Source: Sphaerodactylus townsendi
Lineage: Eukaryota
NCBI RefSeq assembly: GCF_021028975.2
Contig: NC_059441.1
Location: 5,704,001 to 5,768,000 of the forward strand
Length of the DNA stretch: 64,000 bases
Direction: 5' to 3'
Part shown: positions 1-56,131 of the stretch, piece after piece
Layout of the letters: the number at the start of each line of letters is the position of its first letter
How positions within the stretch are numbered: the stretch's first letter is position 1
Translations under genes and position numbers: made by a program
The notes under the pieces: generated by a model
Databases searched by the model: none
What the model was told of the DNA's origin: nothing
The model's input: only the letters and a program-made list of their open reading frames with translations

Positions 1-241
1 CGTAACACCCGTAACCAAAAATCAAGACTCAGTGTTGTCTTAGCTAAGTGCAGGCGCAAAGGGTCAGCCTGGAGCAAGAATCTGCGGCAAGCAGAGCGTT
101 TTGCCGTTTGCAGAAAGGATTTGGTGGTATGACCAGAAGACAAAAGCTTGCAGAATCTTCAAAGCTTCACACACACACACACCCCACACTCCACGCACAA
201 GAATGAAAGCTGTAATGAATTGTATGTAAAACACTTTCTAG

Positions 242-2366: not shown

Positions 2367-2501
2367 CACAGGTGTCAAACTCGCGCCCCTCCAGATGTTA
2401 TGGACTACAGTTCCCATCATCCCCTGCCAGCATGATGCTGGCAGGGGATGATGGGAGCTGTAGTCCATAACATCTGGAGGGCCACGAGTTTGACACCTGG
2501 G
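2367..2501. mobile_element. Palindromic hAT MITE, cap B (CACAGGTGTCAAACTC)
   Basis: Near-perfect foldback; flanks TCCTAATC/GTCTAATC; half copy about 1483-1553, another copy 52314-52413. Confidence 0.85.
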
Positions 2502-13314: not shown

Positions 13315-13445
13315 CACCGCTGAAGATGCCCGCCACAGATGCAGGCAAAATGTTAGGAACAAGATCTACCAGACCACGGCCACACAGCCCGGAAAACCCA
13401 CCAGAACCTGTTGAATCCGGCCATGAAAGCGTTCGACAATACATA
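13315..13445 (+). mobile_element. Penelope terminal-repeat remnant with degenerate hammerhead core
   Basis: CTGAAGATGCC...GGCAAAATGTTAGG...GAAAGCGTTCGACAATAC. Confidence 0.75.
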
Positions 13446-18107: not shown

Positions 18108-18266
18108 GGTTGCTGCGGGCTTTCCGGGCTGTGTTGCCGTGGTCTAGGAGATCTTGTTCCTAAAGTTTCGCCTGCGTCTGGCTGAAGATCCACCAGACCA
18201 CGGCCACACAGTCCGGAAAGCCCTCAACAACCAGGTGAGTCTGGCTGCGAAAGCCTTTGACAATGC
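18108..18266. mobile_element. Inverted pair of Penelope terminal-repeat remnants
   Basis: GGGCTTTCCGGGCTGTG...CCGTGGTCT inverted against AGACCACGG...CACAGTCCGGAAAGCCC. Confidence 0.75.
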
Positions 18267-18564
18267 ATTAGTCCAGGCGTTGGGGAACCCACCGGTTCAG
18301 GGCCCACATCAGCACCCTCACTCTGATGGACAGTGACTGCTTTCCTCTGGACCAGGGGTCTGCAGCCTGCGGCTCCATGGACTACAATTCCCATCAGCCT
18401 CTGCCAGCACAGCCAATTGGCTGATGGGAATTGTAGTCCATGAAATCTGGAGAGCCTCAGGTTGCAGACCCCTGCTTTAGCCCTTACACCCTCATGTCAA
18501 AGAAATTCTGAGGCATTACACTGACAAATTGCCCGTTCATAGCTATTCCTCAGTTGCTGCGTTA

Positions 18565-19700
<1,136 letters not shown>

Positions 19701-20842: not shown

Positions 20843-23264
20843 CCTGAGCATTAGATGGGAGTCCTGCAAAGCTTGTGGGGGGCTCCTCCAAGCCCCACCA
20901 CCAAGTTTCTCCCACTGCTGCTGGAGTGCTCTGCTGCTGCAACCAAGCCCAAACCTCTCTTAACATCCACCACCGCTGTGGCCTCGCCTGGAGCCTCTCC
21001 TGGTGTTTGCACAGAACCACTCCTGCCGTTCGCTGCCACAGCAACTGGGCCCACAGCAGCTCCCAGCATCCTCCAACATGGTGCCCAGGCTCAAGTGTGG
21101 ATTCCTGCAGCGGCAGCCACCTCTACCTGTAAATGCATATGTGCAGACAACACTTTTTTTAGTGGAGGAACTTTCAACCCCAGTGTATTTTTTAAGGTTT
21201 TCAGATTGTTCTGCACATCTGAGGAGCACTCCCAAGTTTGCAGAAAAAGTTGTTTAGCGTTTCTGTGGTCCTGATCCACATATTTAGGAATCAACAGACA
21301 GGGGTGTGTGTCACATGTTGCAATTAGACATAGAGCTGATTTGTGTGATAAAATGTGCAACGAACAAAGAGAAATGCTTCCCTCTGTCAGTTACACGCGA
21401 GTCCAGTAGCAGTAGAGATCAACAAGATTTTTTCCATGTGAGCTTTCATGACTCCAAGCTCCTTTTGTCAGATCTCTGTTCTACTGCAGACGAAAAGCTA
21501 CGTGGGTATGTAAAGTGCTGACAAGTCTTTGCTAACTTACAGCGACCCCATTGGATTTTCAAGGCAAAAGATGTCCGAAGGTGGTTTGCCATTGCCTGCC
21601 TCCGCATGGGCTGAGAGAGTTCAGAGAGAACTATGACTGCCCCAAGGTCACTCAGCAGGCTTCATGTGGAATAGAGGGTAATCGAACCTAGTTCTCCAAA
21701 TTAGAGTTTGCCGCTCTTAACCACTACACCATGTTGGCTCCAAAAGTAAGGTAAGGACATTTAGATACATTTTAAATAAGTGGTTCCTGTAAATCTGAAA
21801 AACATGCTACACATGGAGAATACTTTTTTAAAAAACCAAGAAAAGTCCAAGAGGTCACCAGACAGACACACTGGTGTGAACTACACAAGCATAAGGAATT
21901 CTACATGCAGACACAGCCTGCATTTTGGAATAAATTATGTTGCACTGCATTTTCTAACCAGCAGGTGTCACTAGCGACTGCACTGCAGCCTCCTCAACAA
22001 CCACAATTCCACACCAAAAGTCCACCAATTAAGTCATGAGGGCTGATGCGTTAAATGCTTGTTGACAATTAGGGGAGTCAGGCAGAGCTCACTGGAATAT
22101 TAGAACTGTTAATTCCTTGCTAATTTTTCTCTGGCTGCACAGCCCAGCTAAGTGGAGTAAACAGCTAAGTGGAGCGGACTCCAGTGCAGTCCTTAGAGGG
22201 CAATCCCCTTCAGTAGATGATCTGAGAAGGATTCTGCGTGGAACTGCTCGGGCTGGGGTCTGCAACCTGCGGCTCTCCAGATGTTCATGGACTACAAATC
22301 CCATCAGCCCCTGCCAGCGTGGCCAATTGGCCGTGCTGGCAGGGGCTGATGGGAATTGTAGTCCATGAACATCCGGAGAGCCGCAGGTTGCAGACCCCTT
22401 AGTGCTTATGGAAGGTGGAGGTGATTCATTCAGTAGGAATTCTTAGTATGCCTAAAACCCCGAAGGGAAGGGACAGCATGGAAACCCAATTTGTTAAATA
22501 AACATAAAGAAATAAAACATGAAAACTATACAGAAAGATCTTACGGGGTTTTTTGCCTGTACTTGGGGATGGTGGCTTACAACAGAGTACTCAGCAAGTA
22601 GGTCACTGAAAAGTTGCTTTCAAGTGAAAAGTAATCACAGATTTCATTGTGCTGGACGACTCGGGTCAGGCCTGCTTCAGATATAGGTGTTCACTCAAGA
22701 AGCCCTGAGTGTCTATTTTTGCCTGTATCAGACTATTTAATCCTCAGCAAGAGGTACAGCTCAACAGTGTTGCTGGCTTGATATGGTTAAAATTCTCAAG
22801 GAATACTACTAAAGAGCCTTTGTGTCCATGTTATCCCTTATTGTGTCATAACAGTTTTGCATCTTTAACACTGACCACCCAGGCTGGTGTAGAGGGCAAA
22901 CAGTCAGCAGGAGGGCAAATACACCCATGGCAGGGAGTGGCGTTGAAGGGCAGTGCGGGTGGGGGGGATGGAACAACTGCCCCGGTGGCACAGACTTGGC
23001 TCAGGGGCTGGGCTGGTATGAAAAGGGGCAGTTCCAAAGTTGGCCTTGAAGACAGCCAGAATTTGGGCCAGGAATGCCCACGCCCACCCATCAAACTTAC
23101 ACTTGGTCAAATCGTGCTGCAGTCTGTAGACAACCATGTTACGAAGTTGCCAATCCCCACCCCCACCCCAGCACTGCCCAACCAACAAGGAGGAAAAGAG
23201 CTCAGGAGGCTGACTGGACCCCCGGCTAAGCCACTGACCAATGGCAGGCGCAACGGGGACTCAC

Positions 23265-23700
23265 CCAGCCGCCACCTCTTTTCCTGCGGCCCCTGCTGCA
23301 GAGTCGATTGAGTCCAGAGGCCGTGGAGATCTGCATGTCATGACCTTTGCCTGAGAATTTCCCCACAGGATCCATGAAGACATCCCAGTGGTTGCAGGCG
23401 GCCCGCCTGAAGGGTGGTGCTGTAGTAGCAGTGTGGTACCTGTACACCAGTGGCTTCTTGTACGGGGAGGGGGGGTAAGGGCAACATGGCTGCAGTCCAT
23501 TACCCCCGTGACGTTGGGGAATCCTTCCAGGGACTCAAAGCCGGCCTGGGCCAGGGCCGCCTGGGCATGAAGGCTTGCTGGCATTGCACCCAGGAAGCAA
23601 CGGAGGTAGCGACAGGCTGAGGACTGGGAGACCTCCAGGACTCTGCAATGACACCCTGGAATGTTCTTCTTGCCAGTCCGCAGGGACAGCAAGACCCTCT
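23265..23700 (-). pseudogene. Decayed PIF/Harbinger (HARBI1-like DDE) transposase
   Basis: VSQSSACR...GFPNVTGVMDCSHVAL (consensus GFP.v.GaiDgtHi), frameshift, then ACNHWDVFMDPVGKFSGKGHD (consensus vCD....F.dv.a..PGS.HD), then WRLG followed by a GTGAGT donor. Confidence 0.82.
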
Positions 23701-23789
23701 GCAGGACGGGGGTTGGCCAGGGCCCCAGTACATGCGCCTCTAGCCAGCCTCGACCTCACAGATTTACTGGATTGTCACCCTGTCCAGAG

Positions 23790-32699: not shown

Positions 32700-34550
<1,851 letters not shown>

Positions 34551-35267
34551 CGCTCATCCCTGTGTGCAGAGTGTGTGTGTGTGTGGGGGGGCTGCAGGTG
34601 CTGTCCCCGCCTGAGCGAAAGCCCCCCAGAGGGTCCCAGAAACGGAGGTGCCTCTCAGGAGGCGGTTGACTGGGAGGCTCGGCTGCTCCTGCCAAGGGGC
34701 GGGGGCGGGGGGGGGCAACCAGAAACGCTCTCAGGCAAGCAGCCCCTGGCATGCAGGGCCCCCTCCCCCTGCCGTGCGCCACAGTCTCCATGCCTGGAAG
34801 GTCTGTGTTTTGTGAATGGCATTCCTTCACCAGCTTCATGGGGCTTCTCTCAGAAAGGGGGACCTGAATCCTTCATGGCTCCGCCAGTTAAAAGTGGACT
34901 GTAGATGAGGCTGAGGTTGCCGAGAGGTTGGTGGCCTGCCTGCCGCAGGGGGACTGGGGGGGCTGGGGGCAGCAGCAAGGGGGCTTTGTGGTCAGGTGTG
35001 TCCTCTGCTGTGTTGGGTCAGGCTGGCCTTTGCGGAAGGGCTTCAGTTCACCCAGGTGCATTTGTCAGGGAGGCCCCTCGCCTGATAAAGGTGGGTGTGT
35101 GAATCACGGGCCGGACAGTTGTACACAATGGTCCATGGGACCGGACAAGGTTCCCTGTGGCTGGAAACGCAGCAGGGTGGAAACGTGGGGGCTACAAGTC
35201 CCGGCCATCTTGCCAGCCCCCACTTTCGTGTGTGTTGGGGGTGGGGAGAGCAACCTAGAGCATCATT

Positions 35268-35461
35268 TGGGTACTGTGTGGTTTCTGGGCTGTATGGCCG
35301 TGTTCTAGCAGCATTCTCTCCTGACGTTTCGCCTGCATCTGTGGCTGGCATCTTCAGAGGATCCTCTCCCCCTCTGGAGAGAATGCTGCTAGAACACGGC
35401 CATACAGCCCAGAAACCACACAACACCCCAGTGATTCCAGTCGTGAAACCTTCGACAATAC
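35268..35461. mobile_element. Inverted pair of Penelope terminal repeats
   Basis: GGCTGTATGGCCGTGTTCTAGCAGCATTCTCTCC inverted against GGAGAGAATGCTGCTAGAACACGGCCATACAGCC. Confidence 0.82.
35319..35361 (-). ncRNA. Minimal type I hammerhead ribozyme motif (Penelope-associated)
   Basis: UCCU-CUGAAGA-U-GCC.GC(loop)GC.GGC-GAAA-CG-UC-AGGA: full catalytic core, helices I and II, palindromic ACGU in place of helix III. Confidence 0.75.
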
Positions 35462-36429
35462 GTAGAGCATCATGACTGCGTTCAAAGAATACTTTTCACA
35501 TAGTCATATCTCCTCCTTTTTAAAAAAGAGCTGAATCCAGTGGAGCGGCCTTTGCTCTCAGGGCCGTCTCAAACAGAGTTACACCATTGATGTCAACATG
35601 CTGAGAATATGTCACATTGGTTAGGATTGTTTTTATTTTAACCCCTCAGTGGAGGATCCCATAAGCCATGTAGATGCAGCTCTGAGCCATGCTGCAGTGG
35701 GACCTCCATGTGCAAAGGCAATGTACCAGATACTGGGGAAGAGCTTTGCTTTCATGACCTGCTTACGGGCTCCTTGAGGCAGAATGTAGATGCTGCACTT
35801 GATGGATCCAGCAAAAATCCTAAACTGCAGACGACTCTTCTGTCCCATAAACAGTTGCAATGTTGGGAAGAATGAGAGAGAGAACAGAAATGGCACAAAG
35901 TGTTCAGATAACAAACAGCCTGTGACTGGCTCTGCAGCAGCAGCAGCAGCAACACACACACACCGCCCCCCCTGCAAAGACCGCATCAGCAGTTTGTGCC
36001 CTGGGCTTTGCCCACAGGAGACCCCTTCTCTGCCTCATCGTTCCAGGTCACCTGTGTCTGGTCTCCCCCCAGCTGGAGGTCCATATGGCTGCGGCCACCT
36101 GCCCATCTCCTCTCATCCCAAGCCTGTGCAGCAGGCTCCCCCACACCAAGAACAAGAGTACACCTCACGTGGTGCACAGACAGGCCTGTCAAAGGCACGC
36201 ATGCTGCATGGCATCTGCCACGTTTTGGAAGAGTTACTAGCGGCAGACGTGGCGGTTGTAAGCAATCTGGAGTTTCAGTCGGCTTTCACAAATTGCAGCC
36301 TCTCTTTGATGGGATGTCCTTTTGTGCATTGATAACATTGATGTCTTCATACTTGAGTGCCGCTGACGGCCTCTTGCTACTCCAAGCATGATCCGCCAGT
36401 CACGATCCTGACTGAAATGCGCACTTTTT

Positions 36430-36918
36430 ATTTTATTTTATTTATTCGATTTGATAAACCGCCCTACCCCCGAAGGGCTCAGGGCGGTGTACAATAGCAA
36501 ATGACAAGACAATAAAACAAATCGAATAGCCCCAATTAAAAACAATACAAAACCTTAAAACTATAGCAGCAGTAACCTACAAAAAAATGAATAATAATAA
36601 TAAAAGGCGTCTGGCATCAAACCCCAGTGGACAAACCCTGGGAGGGAGGGGGTAGCAAAAGAGGGGCGGGCTCAGCTGCCGGCCCCCCCAAAAGCCCAGT
36701 GGAACAACACAGTTTTGCAGGCCCTGCGGAACTCTCCAAGGTCCCGCAGGGCCCTAACTGCTGGAGGAAGAGCGTTCCACCAGGCAGGGGCCAGGGCAGT
36801 AAATGCCCTGGCCCGCGTGGATGCCAGCCGCATCATGGAGGGGCCGGGGACCACCAGCAGATTTGCCTCTGCTGAGCGGAGGACGCGAATCAGGACATAT
36901 GGGGTGAGACGGTCCCGT
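36430..36918 (-). mobile_element. L2 LINE 3' fragment
   Basis: RLASTRARAFTALAPAWWNALP...FRRACKT.LF (L2 ORF2 end) and (TAAA)-rich tail; relatives about 48050-48409 (+) and 61115-61375 (-). Confidence 0.85.
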
Positions 36919-37649
36919 AGTCTGTTTCAGAGCAGCCAGGTACGATCAACTCCTTCAGGGCCCCTGAGGGGCCCGCCTGGTCATCTCTGGGCAACAGCTA
37001 TTCAGAGAGATTCCCGCCCCCCACCCCACTCCTTTGAGTCGTGTGGTGGAAGAAAGGTGGGAAGTCATCGCCAAAGTGATGTTCTGGGTTATCGGAGTAG
37101 CTGCCCACTCTGAACAAGGCCATTTGGCACGTTTGTGGTAGGGCCTCATGGGGTGCCACATTTGTGTTCACAGTTGATGCCAAAGGCCTCAGGCTTGGGG
37201 CCTGGCCTTTGACTTCCTGCTTAAAGCGCTCCGGACCTCACCTGGGCTCCGGCAGGAAAGCACTTCGGGCCACTGGAACTGATTCAGTTCCTGATCCCTT
37301 AGTAGCAGAATGACTTGACTGAGTATTTTGCCTTCAGCCCCTTCAGTCTTCTTGTTTGTCTGGAAGCTACTGAGAAGTGTGTATCTCTCCCTCCCTGTCC
37401 CCGTCCCCCGGTCCTTCTCCAAAGCATCCTTGGCAGCTTTCATGCACCTCAGCGAGGGTCTTTTTCTGCAGTCTTTTCCAAACTTGGTTGTAAGGTTTTG
37501 GGATTGATCACAGCAAAGCCAGCGAGATGCCCGCCCATGCAGATGGGGAAGTCTGGATCTTCTCAGTCCTGCCTGCTGCATGGGCACCATTTTTCCCACC
37601 ACGGCACCAGTAATGTCTCCTTCATTAACAGACAGGACACAGCGTGTAA

Positions 37650-37770
37650 CAGACCTTCCCTCTGTGATGCACCTCTGAAGATGCCAGCCACAGATGCAGG
37701 TGGAACGTTAGGAATGAGATCCACCAGACCACGGCCGCACAGTCCGGAAAGCCCACCAAAGCCAGTGGTT
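37650..37770 (+). mobile_element. Penelope terminal-repeat remnant with mutated hammerhead core
   Basis: CCTCTGAAGATGCC...AGGTGGAACGTTAGG (GAAA lost). Confidence 0.75.
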
Positions 37771-39999
37771 TTTTAAAAATTTAATATCATTATATCATTT
37801 TAAATGACTATTTGGTTGCCTGAATTCTTAGCTTTTATTGAATAAAGTTTCTAGCCCCGTTTGTGGCAGGGATGCCTTTCTCTCTGCAATGGAAGGAGCA
37901 AGAGACCTTTTAAAATAATGAAATCTGAGAATTTTGCCATCCTGATAGCCTGATGGTTATAACCTGGAAGCACTCTGCCCGTATAAAATTGCTGATTTAA
38001 CACACACACCCTTTAAAAGCCCCCTCCTGCTGCCCTCTCCAACAGGGGGCTGCTGCTGCTGCTCAGAGTAGACAGGGAGCCAGGAGGAGGCAACCTCACA
38101 CATCCATCCTGTCACCCGCCCCCTCCCCGATCCTTACAGTGTGAAGGTTGGGGGCTAAAAGGATGGGTTGGAGGAGGTAGCGCGATGTCCAGCTTGATCA
38201 GTGGGCACTCCTCCGCCTGACAGAGTGGCCTCCAGTGGCTCCCAGGTGCCGCTCTTCCAGCCCACCTGCCACACCCCCATCCTTGATCTCAGGTGACCCC
38301 CAACCAGGAGCAACACTTGGAGGAGAAACACAGGGTTCCAGGGGAGGGCAGAAGGATTTATGCAGCAGGACCAAGGCAGGGAAGCTGCCGTGTGGAAGCC
38401 CCATTTTGCTCCTGTGCTGCCCTGGAATACCCCAGACGCCCACCCCTGTTGTGGGAAGCACCTCAACGCAGAGAGGTTCGGTTGCAAGGAGACTCGCACC
38501 CCAATGCCATTTGGTGCAACTAAAGGCGTTGCGGTCTGACACCCCCCTGCGGTCTCTTTTTCAGCAGAGCAATTCTTTGGCCTCTTTTGTCTCACAAATG
38601 GACCAGGGAGACGCCTCTCGGGTAGCTGGTGCTCTTGGAGACTCATGTGCAGCAGCAGCGCACACACAGCATTGTCCTTTGAACGGGATGTGTGCGTGCA
38701 CACACGCGAGATAGATTCCTCCGCATCTGAGTCTGGCAGGATGTCGGCTCAGGCTGCCAGGAAGATGGATGTCCCGGGAGCTACAGGAATACATTAGCGG
38801 CACCGAGTTTGATGCTCAGATTTGTTCACTTTGCTTTTTGCTCCTGAATGAAATTAGATTAAAAAGTAGCATTAGGGGGTGTTTTTTCCCAGCCAGCCAA
38901 CCTGTCTGCACCCTCTTGCTCCCTGACTTCAGAAGAGTGACTGAGACCTCATAGTCAGGACTGGGGTGAAGCCTTAAGTGGGTTTTAATCTAAGCGGGGT
39001 TCTCAAAAGCACAGCTGAGCCCATTATTTCTGGGCTCCCTGGGGTGGGAGTCGGGGGTGGGTGGGTGGGTGGGTGGCGGCACAGGAGAGCTTTTGGTGCC
39101 GTCCTACCTTAATGGTTTGGCCAGGGTGGGTGGGTGGGTGGGAGCTGGCCGTGTCCTTGTCCCAAGGGAGTCAGCTCTGAGTAGAGTTTTCATTTTGTAC
39201 ATTTTCACATGTGAATGAATGTGCAGGGATAGAACGAAGTGTTCTGCATGTAACGTCGCCTGTGGACAGGCTGTGATATCGTCTGTAGCAATTTGCGCTC
39301 TGCATTTTCCAGCCCTCGTGTTGGGTGCAGGAGGATGGTCTAGAGCTGATCGTTTCTTTCACTGTGGACCCTGGATTCTATTTTAGCCTTATGTAGGCCA
39401 GTTGCGGAGGAAACGTCTTCCCAAATCCGGTGAGATTACAGTATGACATTAAGTCGGTCCCTGTCTCCTTAGAATCGGAAATGAAATTGCAGCAGGCAGT
39501 GAAATGGCCACGCTGGCAGGTCAGCGGCAGCTGGAGAACCCAGTGAGCCCTGAGGAACTTGGGTGGGATTTGGTCTGTGGTCTTTGGGGCCTCTTCTGGG
39601 CTCAGTTGCTCTTCCTAGATTCAAATAAGAAAACAAAACTGGATTACCCAGAAAGGGGGGGGGGGAGCTTGAATATTTCATGTCCAGAGATAAAAGTTTT
39701 GTGCTCCAATTAAATAATGCATCTTGATGCACGACAGATGTGTCATCACTGCCGCCTGACTGAATGTTCGGCAAGGTCAACACAGGCCCAGGCAAGCAAC
39801 AGGCTGACAAATCAGGCGCAGGGATTGTTTGAAACACGAAGGTCCCACCTTTCCACAGAGCCAGAGGTAACCTGCCCGATATGAAGGTGCCCAGTTAAAA
39901 ACATAGTTGAAACATGTATTGTTGAAGGCTTTCACGGCTGGAATCGCTGGGATGCTGTGTGGTTTCCGGGCTGTATGGCCGTGTTCTAGCAGCATTCTC

Positions 40000-40042
40000 T
40001 CCTGACGTTTCGCCTGCATCTGTGGCTGGCATCTTCAGAGGA
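40000..40042 (-). ncRNA. Minimal hammerhead ribozyme motif inside Penelope terminal repeat 39915-40084
   Basis: Identical 43-nt core to 35319-35361. Confidence 0.75.
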
Positions 40043-40672
40043 TCTGAAGATGATCAGATCCTCTGAAGATGCCAGCCACAGATAGCAGAAGCGGCGTCCA
40101 TGCTACTAAACCGCTGCTGTCTCCAGAAGCTCTACAACACCATAGATTAGAAAACACATCAAGGTGAAATGGGAGCTCCTATGTCACCCCCAGTTGCCAA
40201 TCAGATACATTTATTAATTCTGCTAAAGGAGTGTTAAAATAATTCTGCTTTGCGTCTTTTGGAGCATTTCTCTGCGCGGGTCGTGTGTTCCGGGGCCAAT
40301 GCTGTTTGGAAGCAGGGTTGGTTGTTTTTTTTCTTGCTTTGATCACAGCAGCTGGGCGAGAAGGAAGTTCAGACGTTTCTGCCCACTTGGCGGCCATTTT
40401 GCCAGTCCTTGGCCCCACGGCATACATTCTGTCTCTTCCACCGCTGGTGGAGCTTTTTCTTTTTTTAATTAAAAAAAATCAGTTATTTCTTATTGTAATA
40501 ACAGTAAGGATGATAGATTCTGTGAATTCCCAGTTTTAAAAAGAAAAGTAATTCTCCAGCCAATCTGTTGTAGAGAGATAAGGGGGAAGGGGTTGCGAAG
40601 AGGAGCAGGCAGGGGTGTGTTTGCGCAAAGAGGGAACTGCCAAAAGAGAGGAGGAACATTCTGACCTTAGGT

Positions 40673-40848
40673 GCCGTGTTCTAGCAGCATTCTCTCCTGA
40701 CGTTTCGGCTGCATGATCCTCTGAAGATGCTGCCAGCCACAGATGCAGGCGAAACATCAGGAGAGAATGCTGCTAGAACTTCTCGATCGCCTTCGGCGGA
40801 AACCACACAGCACCCAAGTGATTCCGGCCGTGAAAGCCTTCGACAATA
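40673..40848. mobile_element. Inverted Penelope terminal-repeat pair with variant hammerhead (40717-40762, +)
   Basis: TCCT-CTGAAGA-TGCTGCC...GGC-GAAACATC-AGGA; ACGU changed to ACAU, plus a 3-nt insertion. Confidence 0.75.
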
Positions 40849-42079
40849 TATATTCTGACCTTAGTTGGGGCATAGGCTTGCCTAGCAAAAGGTGGTCCCG
40901 GGCCGTGAAGGGCTTTAAAGGTAAACAGCCAGCTCCTTGAATTGTGCCACCTGGACCAACTGAAGTCTCCAAATAGCTTTCAAGGGCAAGCCTGCATTAC
41001 AGTAATCTAGCCTAGAGGACACCATGACATGGATCAGTGTGTTGTGAGCTGTGAAAACTCTGAGCATCCTCCCAGGCAGACGCAACCTGCATTCTCAGAC
41101 GTGTGGACTAGAAACCTGGTTTAGTGTTAAGTGGATTTTTAAATTTGTTTTTGCAAGATATCGGATATTCAGGCCTCTCGCGGGCACGGTGGGGTGTGTG
41201 TTTGTGGTTCTGTCGCTATCTGCTATAACATCGTTTCTAAGCTATGACATTTATGCTGATTACTGTTTTATCTTGTTGGATTTTATTATTATGAATTGTG
41301 ATTAATTTATTGTTTTATTTATTTATTTTATTTATTTTATTAAACTTATAGGCCGCCTATCCCCGAAGGGGATGTTGTTCCCCGCCCTGAGCCCTTCGGG
41401 GGAGGGTGGTTTATAAATCTAATTATAAATATAAAATAAAAGACGTCAAGTACAATAACTGAATATTCCCACTTGGACAATACTCCCTGCAAGCACTTCA
41501 GTGACGCTTTTGCTCTCCGTGGGGCAGCCTTCTGCTGCAGGTGGAGGCGTTTTGCACCAAGATCACTTTGCTGTGGTTGAAATCTTCCCATAGAAAAAAA
41601 GGTGTGCCTGCCGCAGCCTGTTGAGTCGGGCATGTGGCTGGGGCCCAGGGTCTCAGTGTTATTGATACAGGGAAGGCCCGGCTGTGCAGGTGTGCAAACC
41701 TTTCTCAGTTGCAGGGTGAGCTCCGGGTAGGTGTGTGAAGCTGAGAGAGGTTTTGGAGGCAGTTGCTGGTTAGATGGCTGGAGAAATCTTTTCCTCGTCC
41801 CTGCGGACTCTGGTGTTTTCCCCATGGGAAGGGGCTTATGTTGCTTCCCCACTGCTGGTGCGGCTGTGGAGAACATTGCCCTGGCAATGGGGTTTCCACG
41901 GGGCACTTTCCCTGCGGCCGGCCCCTAGCAGCAGCCCCCCCCCTCCTCCCCCAGGCCACCAAGGAGTTCTCTGTTTCTTTGAAAAAGGCAATTGAATATG
42001 CTATGTGGTTATAGCATTATAACAATACATGTACCAGGTTCTTTGAACTACAAACTTTCATTTTGTTACAAAAAACAAA

Positions 42080-53982: not shown

Positions 53983-54130
53983 CAGGGGTCTGCAACTTGC
54001 GGCTCTCCAGATGTTCATGGACTAAAAATCCCATCAGCCACTGCCAACATGGCCAATTGGCCATGCTGGCAGTGGCTGATGGGATTTGTAGTCCATGAAC
54101 ATCTGGAGAGCCGCAGGTTGCAGACCCCTG
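53983..54130. mobile_element. Full-length 148-bp palindromic hAT MITE, cap A
   Basis: Near-perfect palindrome centred on GGCCAATTGGCC. Confidence 0.9.
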
Positions 54131-55870: not shown

Positions 55871-56131
55871 TAGGGGTCTGCAACCTGCGGCTCTCCAGAT
55901 GTTCATGGACTATAAATCCCATCAGCCCCTGCCAGCATGGCCAATTGGCCATGCTGGCAGGGGCTGATGGGATTTGTAGTCCATGAACATCTGGTGAGCC
56001 GCAGGTTGCAGACCCTATAGGGCAGGGGTCTTCAAACTATGGCCCTCCAGATGTTCATTGGCCATGCTGGCAGGGGCTGATGGGATTAGTAGTCCATGAA
56101 CATCTGGAGAGCCGCAGGTTGCAGACCCCTG
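55871..56131. mobile_element. Two adjacent palindromic MITEs: cap A (55871-56017) and a cap D/cap A chimera (56023-56131)
   Basis: Second element begins CAGGGGTCTTCAAACTATGG and ends CAGGTTGCAGACCCCTG. Confidence 0.85.

What the first reader, a model, noticed from the sequence alone, without database searches (positions are those of the whole stretch)
35319..40762. Hammerhead ribozyme cores in Penelope terminal repeats within FRMD5 intron 1
Seen: two identical minus-strand 43-mers (35319-35361, 40000-40042) read UCCU CUGAAGA U GCC-A-GC-CACAGAU-GC-A-GGC GAAA CG UC AGGA. They contain the complete CUGANGA/GAAA core, a GUC cleavage triplet, a 4-bp helix I, helix II, and a loopless palindromic ACGU where helix III should be. 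Established: Penelope-like elements carry such minimal type I hammerheads, which are thought to cleave as dimers. Inference: these gecko copies may be active when two motifs pair. Neither the ORF track nor ordinary gene annotation would show them.
Basis: partly seen in the sequence, partly recalled or inferred. Interest (0 to 1): 0.7.

Follow-up and report, generated by a model that had tools for sequence, protein, structure and literature searches.

The report
Passenger hammerheads in gecko Poseidon stubs
The two self-cutting-RNA motifs are real, but they sit in short leftover ends of a very common lizard jumping gene whose anole relative has already been studied in the test tube; here they point against the host gene and are predicted to be folded shut, so they are likely inactive and the finding is ordinary.

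Summary
Confirmed: two identical minus-strand 43-mers with a full minimal type I hammerhead core. They lie in fold-back stubs of a Penelope/Poseidon retroelement. A copy elsewhere in this genome has an open 819-codon RT + GIY-YIG frame, 85% identical to an Anolis carolinensis protein whose start matches PAc. The motif overlaps the start codon, as in PAc. The exact 35-base core occurs 11,079 times genome-wide, so two per window is unremarkable. FRMD5 exon 1 is on the + strand: both intact motifs are antisense to it, the sense copies are damaged, and each is predicted to be sequestered by its own inverted arm (12-49 kcal/mol). Close tandems are rare (7 exact junctions). Genomic copies decay neutrally, catalytic G12 included, but the motif is conserved between element lineages. 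Arms end at the two PAc-like RT start sites and begin about 30 nt after a TATA box; 0 of 85 begin at the cut site, one more is ambiguous, so uncleaved RNA was likely the template. The scan found this family before on other pieces of this genome. Ordinary.

The parts
33284..33385 (+). FRMD5 exon 1 coding part (34 codons, GT donor at 33386); sets the host strand as +
35256..35473 (.). Insertion A: head-to-head stub with 11-bp target-site duplication (35256-35266, 35463-35473)
35268..35363 (-). A, short arm (element positions q2 to about q96, without the 34-base tail)
   Evidence: q2-91 by BLAST, rest read
35319..35361 (-). Hammerhead A, intact core; AUG at 35351; predicted cut 35323/35322; antisense to FRMD5
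35364..35462 (+). A, long arm with tail; lacks the hammerhead core (resumes at q44-45, one base past the cut site; could be a deletion or a cleaved template)
37637..37760 (+). Insertion D, older subfamily B arm, sense to FRMD5; core broken (A13 to G, C11.1 to U)
39913..40045 (-). Insertion B, long arm q1 to about q133 with tail
40000..40042 (-). Hammerhead B, intact core; AUG at 40032; predicted cut 40004/40003; antisense to FRMD5
40056..40142 (+). B, inverted arm: q1-32 clean, the rest a scrambled likeness of q34-98 (11 of 1000 shuffles score as well; possibly assembly noise)
40658..40864 (.). Insertion C: head-to-head stub with 13-bp target-site duplication (40658-40670, 40852-40864); minus arm 40673-40714 = q27-68
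40717..40762 (+). Hammerhead C, sense to FRMD5, damaged: 3-base insertion before helix II, ACGU palindrome changed to ACAU; predicted sequestered (30 kcal/mol)

Best explanation
The two motifs are the hammerheads of a Penelope/Poseidon-clade retroelement, carried in short head-to-head insertion stubs that lie antisense to FRMD5 and are predicted to be folded shut, so they are likely inactive passengers. Shown: the stub sequence is the start of an 819-codon RT + GIY-YIG frame elsewhere in the genome, the hammerhead overlaps its AUG, arms end at two positions 34 bases apart, and insertions A and C have target-site duplications. Inferred: the parent is transcribed from about 30 nt after a TATA box in its pseudo-LTR; its protein nicks host DNA and primes reverse transcription inside the RNA at those two positions (shown in vitro for the anole relative PAc); copying runs off the 5' end of the uncut RNA and leaves one or two 100-133-base arms. 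After insertion the copies decay neutrally. The ribozyme matters, if at all, in the parent's own RNA, where cleavage is probably helped by the element's protein.
For: Parent: L043 has an open frame from the hammerhead's AUG, Pfam RVT_1 E=1e-12, GIY-YIG-like GVY..VYIG read by eye; 690 of 816 residues identical to an Anolis carolinensis protein whose first residues match the PAc template printed in PMC11167929 (by eye). L044 and L046 have two same-strand motifs about 2.7 kb apart around the frame. Abundance: 11,079 exact cores, 21,667 exact flank 18-mers. 3' ends: 41 of 85 arms at q126-133, 38 of 85 at q91-106; q130 is 117 nt into the frame, and PAc starts RT at 111-118. 5' ends: 44 of 85 at q-10..8, 0 of 85 at q42-48 (cut site q43) (0 of 99 in the wider set). 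In subfamily B the TATA box lies 26-32 bases further upstream and 12 of 29 arms start at q-34..-25, only 6 of 29 at q-10..8 (p=0.005). Sequestration: 29 of 40 intact cores have an antisense arm just upstream, median penalty 51.5 kcal/mol against 8.5 for the other 11; window copies A, B, C 11.7, 49.3, 29.7. Neutral decay: G12 changed in 6 of 40 copies, like flank CpGs.
Against: No cleavage or RNA-end data were obtained. Folding penalties are equilibrium 2D predictions; 5 of the 29 copies with an upstream arm had penalties of 10 or less, and copy A's penalty is modest. The plus arm of insertion A resumes one base past the cut site, and 2 of 85 arms start at q40-41, one of them (L227) compatible with the cut site given junction microhomology, so a small minority of cleaved templates is not excluded; two earlier scan notes say the same. 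Starts inside palindromes are blurred by the self-complementary GATC at q2-5. A within-family test of the TATA rule was inconclusive (p=0.16). PMC3846280 argues for antisense, self-primed templates, and PMC2377424 found a TATA-less internal promoter in Drosophila Penelope. Samples come from the start of one contig (C1). FRMD5 exons 2-13 are inverted in this assembly, which leaves a small doubt on the host strand here.
Confidence: 0.85

Rival explanations
1. The two intronic copies are active as a dimer on an antisense transcript (or in trans with some of the thousands of other copies) and cut host RNA.
For: Both cores, helix I and the ACGU palindrome are intact. Minimal PLE hammerheads show low activity as dimers in vitro (PMC4209133, parts 1-2 read). 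Copy A's predicted penalty is only 11.7 kcal/mol.
Against: Antisense to FRMD5; 4.7 kb apart; helix I probability 0.0 in context; ACGU self-duplex only -1.7 kcal/mol; PAc did not cleave without protein and no RNA-seq reads began or ended at its cut site (PMC11167929); no sign of selection on genomic copies.
Confidence: 0.05
2. The stubs are a self-propagating non-autonomous family (retrozyme-like) that multiplies through ribozyme-cut monomers or circles.
For: Most copies are only about 130 bases; one locus has four 131-base head-to-tail units (L016); a 2026 preprint derives animal retrozymes from PLE pLTRs (10.64898/2026.07.22.740005, part 1 and passages).
Against: Only 7 exact head-to-tail junctions at 5 loci genome-wide against 11,079 cores; unit boundaries are at q1-5 and q133, not at the cut site; most stubs lack the TATA box; 0 of 85 arms start at the cut site.
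Confidence: 0.06
3. The motif's conservation reflects protein coding, promoter or protein-binding constraints on the first codons, and cleavage plays no part in this lineage.
For: The motif overlaps codons 1-11; genomic ends point to uncut templates; catalytic mutants did not affect PAc insertion in vitro (PMC11167929); helix II has an A-A mismatch in the gecko where PAc has U-G.
Against: Between subfamilies 1 of 42 motif positions differs (q5-46) against 20 of 84 flank positions, and the flank peptide is poorly kept. Against PAc the 6 differences in q4-46 fall on N7, the loop, wobbles, the mismatch and the end of helix I, none on the 12 core bases (by eye). PAc's motif cleaves with the C3/G8 dependence of a hammerhead.
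Confidence: 0.15

Closest known systems
PAc / Poseidon_Ac of Anolis carolinensis and its hammerhead (Frangieh et al. 2024, PMC11167929; parts 1-3 of 4 and supplement 3 read, figures not seen)
   Same: Protein 85% identical over 816 residues to the anole relative; AUG at the start of helix II; same core, ACGU and GUC; two 3' ends about 34 bases apart at the same distance into the frame; 37 of 43 motif bases identical (by eye).
   Different: A gecko family with its own upstream region; A-A mismatch in helix II where PAc has U-G; a fourth pair in helix I; the window copies are ORF-less stubs. Activity of the gecko motif is untested.
[quoted passage not shown]
   Same: 4-bp helix I, extra base between A9 and G10.1, G10.1-C11.1 pair, palindromic 15.2-16.2 without loop 3, thousands of solitary copies, pairs on opposite strands within a few hundred bases.
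   Different: Helix II is 5 pairs with a mismatch (7-8 in the Schistosoma examples); geckos are not named in the parts read (turtle and snakes are).
EN+ PLE insertion layout with inverted 5'-truncated copy and 30-40-bp tail (Craig et al. 2021, PMC8557442; Arkhipova et al. 2013, PMC3846280; passages read)
   Same: Head-to-head arms, tail on one arm only, target-site duplication; pLTR with TATATATA and initiator-like motif and the first ORF codons was noted in Adineta Pen2a.
   Different: Here most insertions are reduced to the 100-133-base arms alone.
Non-LTR retrozymes (10.64898/2026.07.22.740005; part 1 of 5 and passages read)
   Same: Small, non-coding, type I hammerhead, PLE-derived; one four-unit array exists in this genome.
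   Different: Tandem arrays are nearly absent (7 junctions), and the window copies are inverted, not tandem.

Membership tests
Minimal type I hammerhead (PLE min-HHR) | CUGANGA and GAAA boxes with NUH triplet | tested here: met
Minimal type I hammerhead (PLE min-HHR) | Helix I of 4-5 bp, helix II with G10.1-C11.1, extra base after A9 | tested here: met
   helix II outer pairs 0.82-0.91 probable without the inverted arm, helix I only 0.004-0.03 as a monomer
Minimal type I hammerhead (PLE min-HHR) | Palindromic 15.2-16.2, no helix III loop | tested here: met
   ACGU
Minimal type I hammerhead (PLE min-HHR) | Core conserved across lineages with structure-neutral variation | tested here: met
   no fully compensatory pair seen; among dead genomic copies no excess conservation
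Minimal type I hammerhead (PLE min-HHR) | Self-cleavage as dimer or with protein | not testable with these tools
   no raw RNA reads offered
Rfam hammerhead families | Covariance-model match | tested here: not met
   no hammerhead family among 38 matches at E<=1
EN+ Penelope-like element, Penelope/Poseidon clade | Single ORF with RT and C-terminal GIY-YIG | tested here: met
   in the parent L043, not in the window: RVT_1 E=1e-12; GIY-YIG motifs read by eye, no Pfam or NCBIfam hit for that domain; two relatives carry a GIY-YIG label
EN+ Penelope-like element, Penelope/Poseidon clade | No Zn-finger-like linker between RT and EN (which marks Neptune and Nematis) | tested here: met
   no cysteine cluster in the linker, read; 85% identity to the anole relative; no tree built
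EN+ Penelope-like element, Penelope/Poseidon clade | Direct pLTRs around the ORF, inverted 5' copy, 30-40-bp tail | tested here: met
   L044, L046; arms ending at q96-98 vs q130-133
EN+ Penelope-like element, Penelope/Poseidon clade | Target-site duplication | tested here: met
   11 bp (A) and 13 bp (C); none exact for B, only a degenerate likeness
Non-LTR retrozyme | Head-to-tail tandem units each with a hammerhead | tested here: not met
   none in the window; 7 exact junctions at 5 loci genome-wide
Non-LTR retrozyme | Circular RNA monomers | not testable with these tools
   only contigs offered

The most novel reading that the evidence does not exclude
The thousands of stubs are a fossil record of the element's RNA: their ends map its transcription start (30 nt after a TATA box, shifting with the box between subfamilies) and show that uncut RNA is the template in vivo. 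The hammerhead, kept intact from geckos to anoles on top of the start codon, would then be a protein-triggered off switch that cuts the cap and AUG from the element's own mRNA, a feedback brake and not a step in copying.
Probability: 0.3. Interest if true: 0.5.

Novelty: new member of a known kind. Interest (0 to 1): 0.15.

Why it matters
At this locus it matters little: two of some 11,000 intact cores, likely silent. What the Penelope hammerhead does is an open question (PMC8557442, PMC11167929). The end statistics give in vivo support for the test-tube result that uncut RNA is the template, and an open-frame gecko relative of PAc offers a second system to test a feedback role. Practical point: these fold-back stubs will keep surfacing as apparent intronic ribozymes or hairpins in lizard genomes.

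Tried and rejected
Rfam scan: no hammerhead family. Lunse et al. 2016 (dimer paper) was not held by DOI or PMC id; known only from its citation in PMC6765202. FERM_C genome search gave no hit on the window's contig; FRMD5 was placed by tblastn instead. Pfam gave nothing for the 34-residue exon. Atlas look-up unavailable. PDB search gave only distant RTs. Sequencing runs: no RNA holder listed, contigs only, so no RNA ends or strand. Laying contigs of coded organisms showed variant letters at N7, loop II, wobbles and the A-A mismatch, the same letters as PAc, so not independent of the PAc comparison; 36 rows were not shown, and the narrower second lay listed one variant only. The fold of the tandem array L016 was mis-anchored by my script and is dropped. 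Six arm starts at q-28 are alignment stops at a variable AT run, not true ends. Within-family TATA test inconclusive. Frangieh supplements 1-2 hold almost no text and the GenBank file is unreadable here; their Fig. S2 coverage plots may already show the 5' pile-up. Searches for prior reports of the 5'-end pattern listed none by title or abstract start; the library lacks most subscription journals and Repbase/Dfam could not be searched.
Full report
Coordinates q1-q133 count along the repeat in its own direction, q1 = window 40045 on the minus strand; C3 = q8, AUG = q14, G12 = q35, cut between q42 and q43.

1. Observation. The stretches 35319-35361 and 40000-40042 are identical, within 77 bases of exact identity. 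Helix II is three pairs, an A-A mismatch and two pairs. Rfam lists no hammerhead family in the window (38 matches at E<=1). BLAST of the 130-base repeat gives 10 hits in the window. The exact 35-base core occurs 11,079 times in the 1.81-Gb genome, the reversed control 0 times; 0.39 copies are expected per 64 kb.

2. Host gene. 33284-33385 encodes 34 residues followed by a GT. Nearly all named hits are FRMD5, the best of them gecko proteins at 97%. It lies on +. So the two intact motifs are antisense to the FRMD5 pre-mRNA. The sense-strand copies in the interval are damaged: D (37672-37756) has A13 changed to G, C (40717-40762) has a 3-base insertion and ACAU for ACGU, the plus arm of A lacks the core and that of B is clean only to q32. 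Caveat: exons 2-13 are inverted in this assembly. The copies lie 1.9-7.4 kb from exon 1 with no N between, so intron 1 on + is the likeliest reading.

3. Parent element. One locus ran on from the repeat into a reading frame (L025). Searching with that part and fetching more gave L043, an open frame of 819 codons that begins at the hammerhead's AUG, with RVT_1 at E=1e-12 and a C-terminal GVY..VYIG / R / E / N pattern read by eye; neither Pfam nor NCBIfam labelled that domain. L044 and L046 carry two same-strand motifs about 2.7 kb apart around the frame. The best relative is an Anolis carolinensis protein, 690 of 816 identical, whose first 42 residues match the translation of the PAc template printed in PMC11167929 but for one (by eye). 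There is no cysteine cluster between RT and endonuclease, which fits Penelope/Poseidon and not Neptune or Nematis (criterion from PMC8557442).

4. Anatomy of the stubs. Insertions A and C have 11- and 13-bp target-site duplications; B has only a degenerate likeness. Arms were sampled by a flank 18-mer only (q48-65; 21,667 genome-wide); I fetched loci covering the first 84 or so of the 100 listed places, all on contig C1, which gave 85 distinct arms with enough flank. 3' ends: 41 at q126-133, 38 at q91-106, 6 elsewhere. 5' ends: 16 upstream of q-10, 44 at q-10..8, 23 at q9-38, 2 at q40-41, 0 at q42-48; upper 95% bound for cut-site starts 3.5%. One of the two (L227) could be a cut-site joint blurred by microhomology, and the plus arm of window insertion A resumes at q44-45. 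The two 3' ends match the tail of PLEs and the two RT start sites of PAc (111-118 nt into the frame for one of them). A TATATA box starts 28-35 bases before q1 in 36 of 40 longer copies, and q-1..q5 reads like an initiator. In the older subfamily B the box starts at q-59, and 12 of 29 arms begin at q-34..-25, 6 of 29 at q-10..8 (p=0.005 against family A; the two samples were selected differently). So 5' ends follow the TATA box and not the hammerhead's edge or cut site. A finer test inside family A was inconclusive (p=0.16).

5. Can these copies fold? Head-to-head arms mean that any read-through transcript makes the antisense arm before the hammerhead. Among 40 intact cores from the start of C1, 29 have such an arm, 1 has a second sense copy within 500 bases. 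The predicted cost of a hammerhead-compatible fold has a median of 51.5 kcal/mol with the arm (24 of 29 above 10) and 8.5 without (5 of 11 above 10). For A, B and C it is 11.7, 49.3 and 29.7, against 2.5-4.5 for an RNA that starts at q1. Exact head-to-tail junctions number 7 at 5 loci. Pairing in cis is therefore mostly open to full-length elements with two pLTRs.

6. Conservation. In 40 copies picked by anchors outside the motif (first 40 of 1,565), non-CpG core positions differ in 3 of 440 cells against 41 of 2240 in the flank (p=0.10), CpG positions in 24 of 160 against 39 of 320 (p=0.39); G12 is changed in 6 of 40, and 18 of 40 keep core, ACGU and the 10.1-11.1 pair. That is neutral decay. 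Between the majority sequences of subfamilies A and B, q5-46 differs at 1 of 42 positions (C17 to U) and q47-130 at 20 of 84 (p=0.006 counting q4 as well). Against PAc, six differences in q4-46, none in the core (by eye). The motif is thus under constraint in parent lineages, though coding overlap or exchange between subfamilies could add to this.

7. Mechanism. Shown: family identity, overlap with the AUG, end positions, duplications, orientation, neutral decay. Inferred: transcription from the TATA/initiator, internal priming at two sites, run-off at the RNA's 5' end, uncut template, sequestration. Known from PAc in vitro (PMC11167929): both strands are nicked and extended, the hammerhead cleaves only with protein, catalytic mutants do not change insertion, no RNA-seq reads start or end at the cut site. 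Against: PMC3846280 prefers self-priming on antisense templates; PMC2377424 found a TATA-less promoter in Drosophila Penelope.

8. Known or new. Minimal hammerheads in PLE pLTRs, their dimer requirement and their spread as solitary or opposite-strand copies are published (PMC4209133); the anole relative is characterised. This is a gecko member of that family. The scan's earlier notes, consulted after my own analysis, report the same family and similar readings on other pieces of this genome; they are not independent evidence. Papers seen: PMC4209133 parts 1-2 of 4; PMC11167929 parts 1-3 of 4 and supplement 3; passages of PMC8557442, PMC6765202, PMC2377424, PMC3846280; part 1 and passages of 10.64898/2026.07.22.740005; Lunse et al. 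2016 by citation only.

9. Verdict. Observation confirmed, interpretation partly supported, interest 0.15. The boldest reading left open is that the hammerhead is a protein-triggered brake that cuts cap and AUG off the element's own mRNA (probability 0.3, interest 0.5).

Noticed in passing
G000:C17, 81,565-107,388 in window numbering continued (L049-L052): FRMD5 exons 2-13 lie on the minus strand while exon 1 (33284) and the last exon (139,692) lie on plus: an inverted block, probably a mis-assembly (84 N at 79,515-79,598; no N found on the other side), possibly real.
   Followed up: partly
L043:899-3355 (G000:C3 near 109.3 kb): Open 819-codon Poseidon frame. Its best relatives are anole proteins (85-86%), next come beetle and unnamed proteins at 56-62%; a hint of horizontal transfer, no tree built.
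   Followed up: no
L016:1501-1900 (G000:C10 near 85.155 Mb): Four head-to-tail 131-base units of the stub, retrozyme-like; one of 5 such loci.
   Followed up: partly
window 13317-13444, 18108-18268, 37637-37760: Older subfamily B of the same element: same hammerhead but GUU at the cut triplet, different upstream region.
   Followed up: yes
window 2393-2475, 22280-22373, 54010-54103, 55898-55991 and others: About 15 copies of a palindromic 150-base repeat that hit mir-5408 below Rfam's gathering score; looks like a MITE-type repeat.
   Followed up: no
window about 18660-19050, minus strand: Reading frame that I recall as the first exon of GOLM2/CASC4, head to head with FRMD5 (name recalled, not tested).
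   Followed up: no
window 40089-40142 and 40779-40795: Second arms of insertions B and C are locally scrambled, as might come from consensus errors in fold-back DNA.
   Followed up: partly
window 23261-23755, minus strand: Reading frame with a GVMDCSHV stretch that I recall as Harbinger/HARBI1-like nuclease (recalled, not tested).
   Followed up: no
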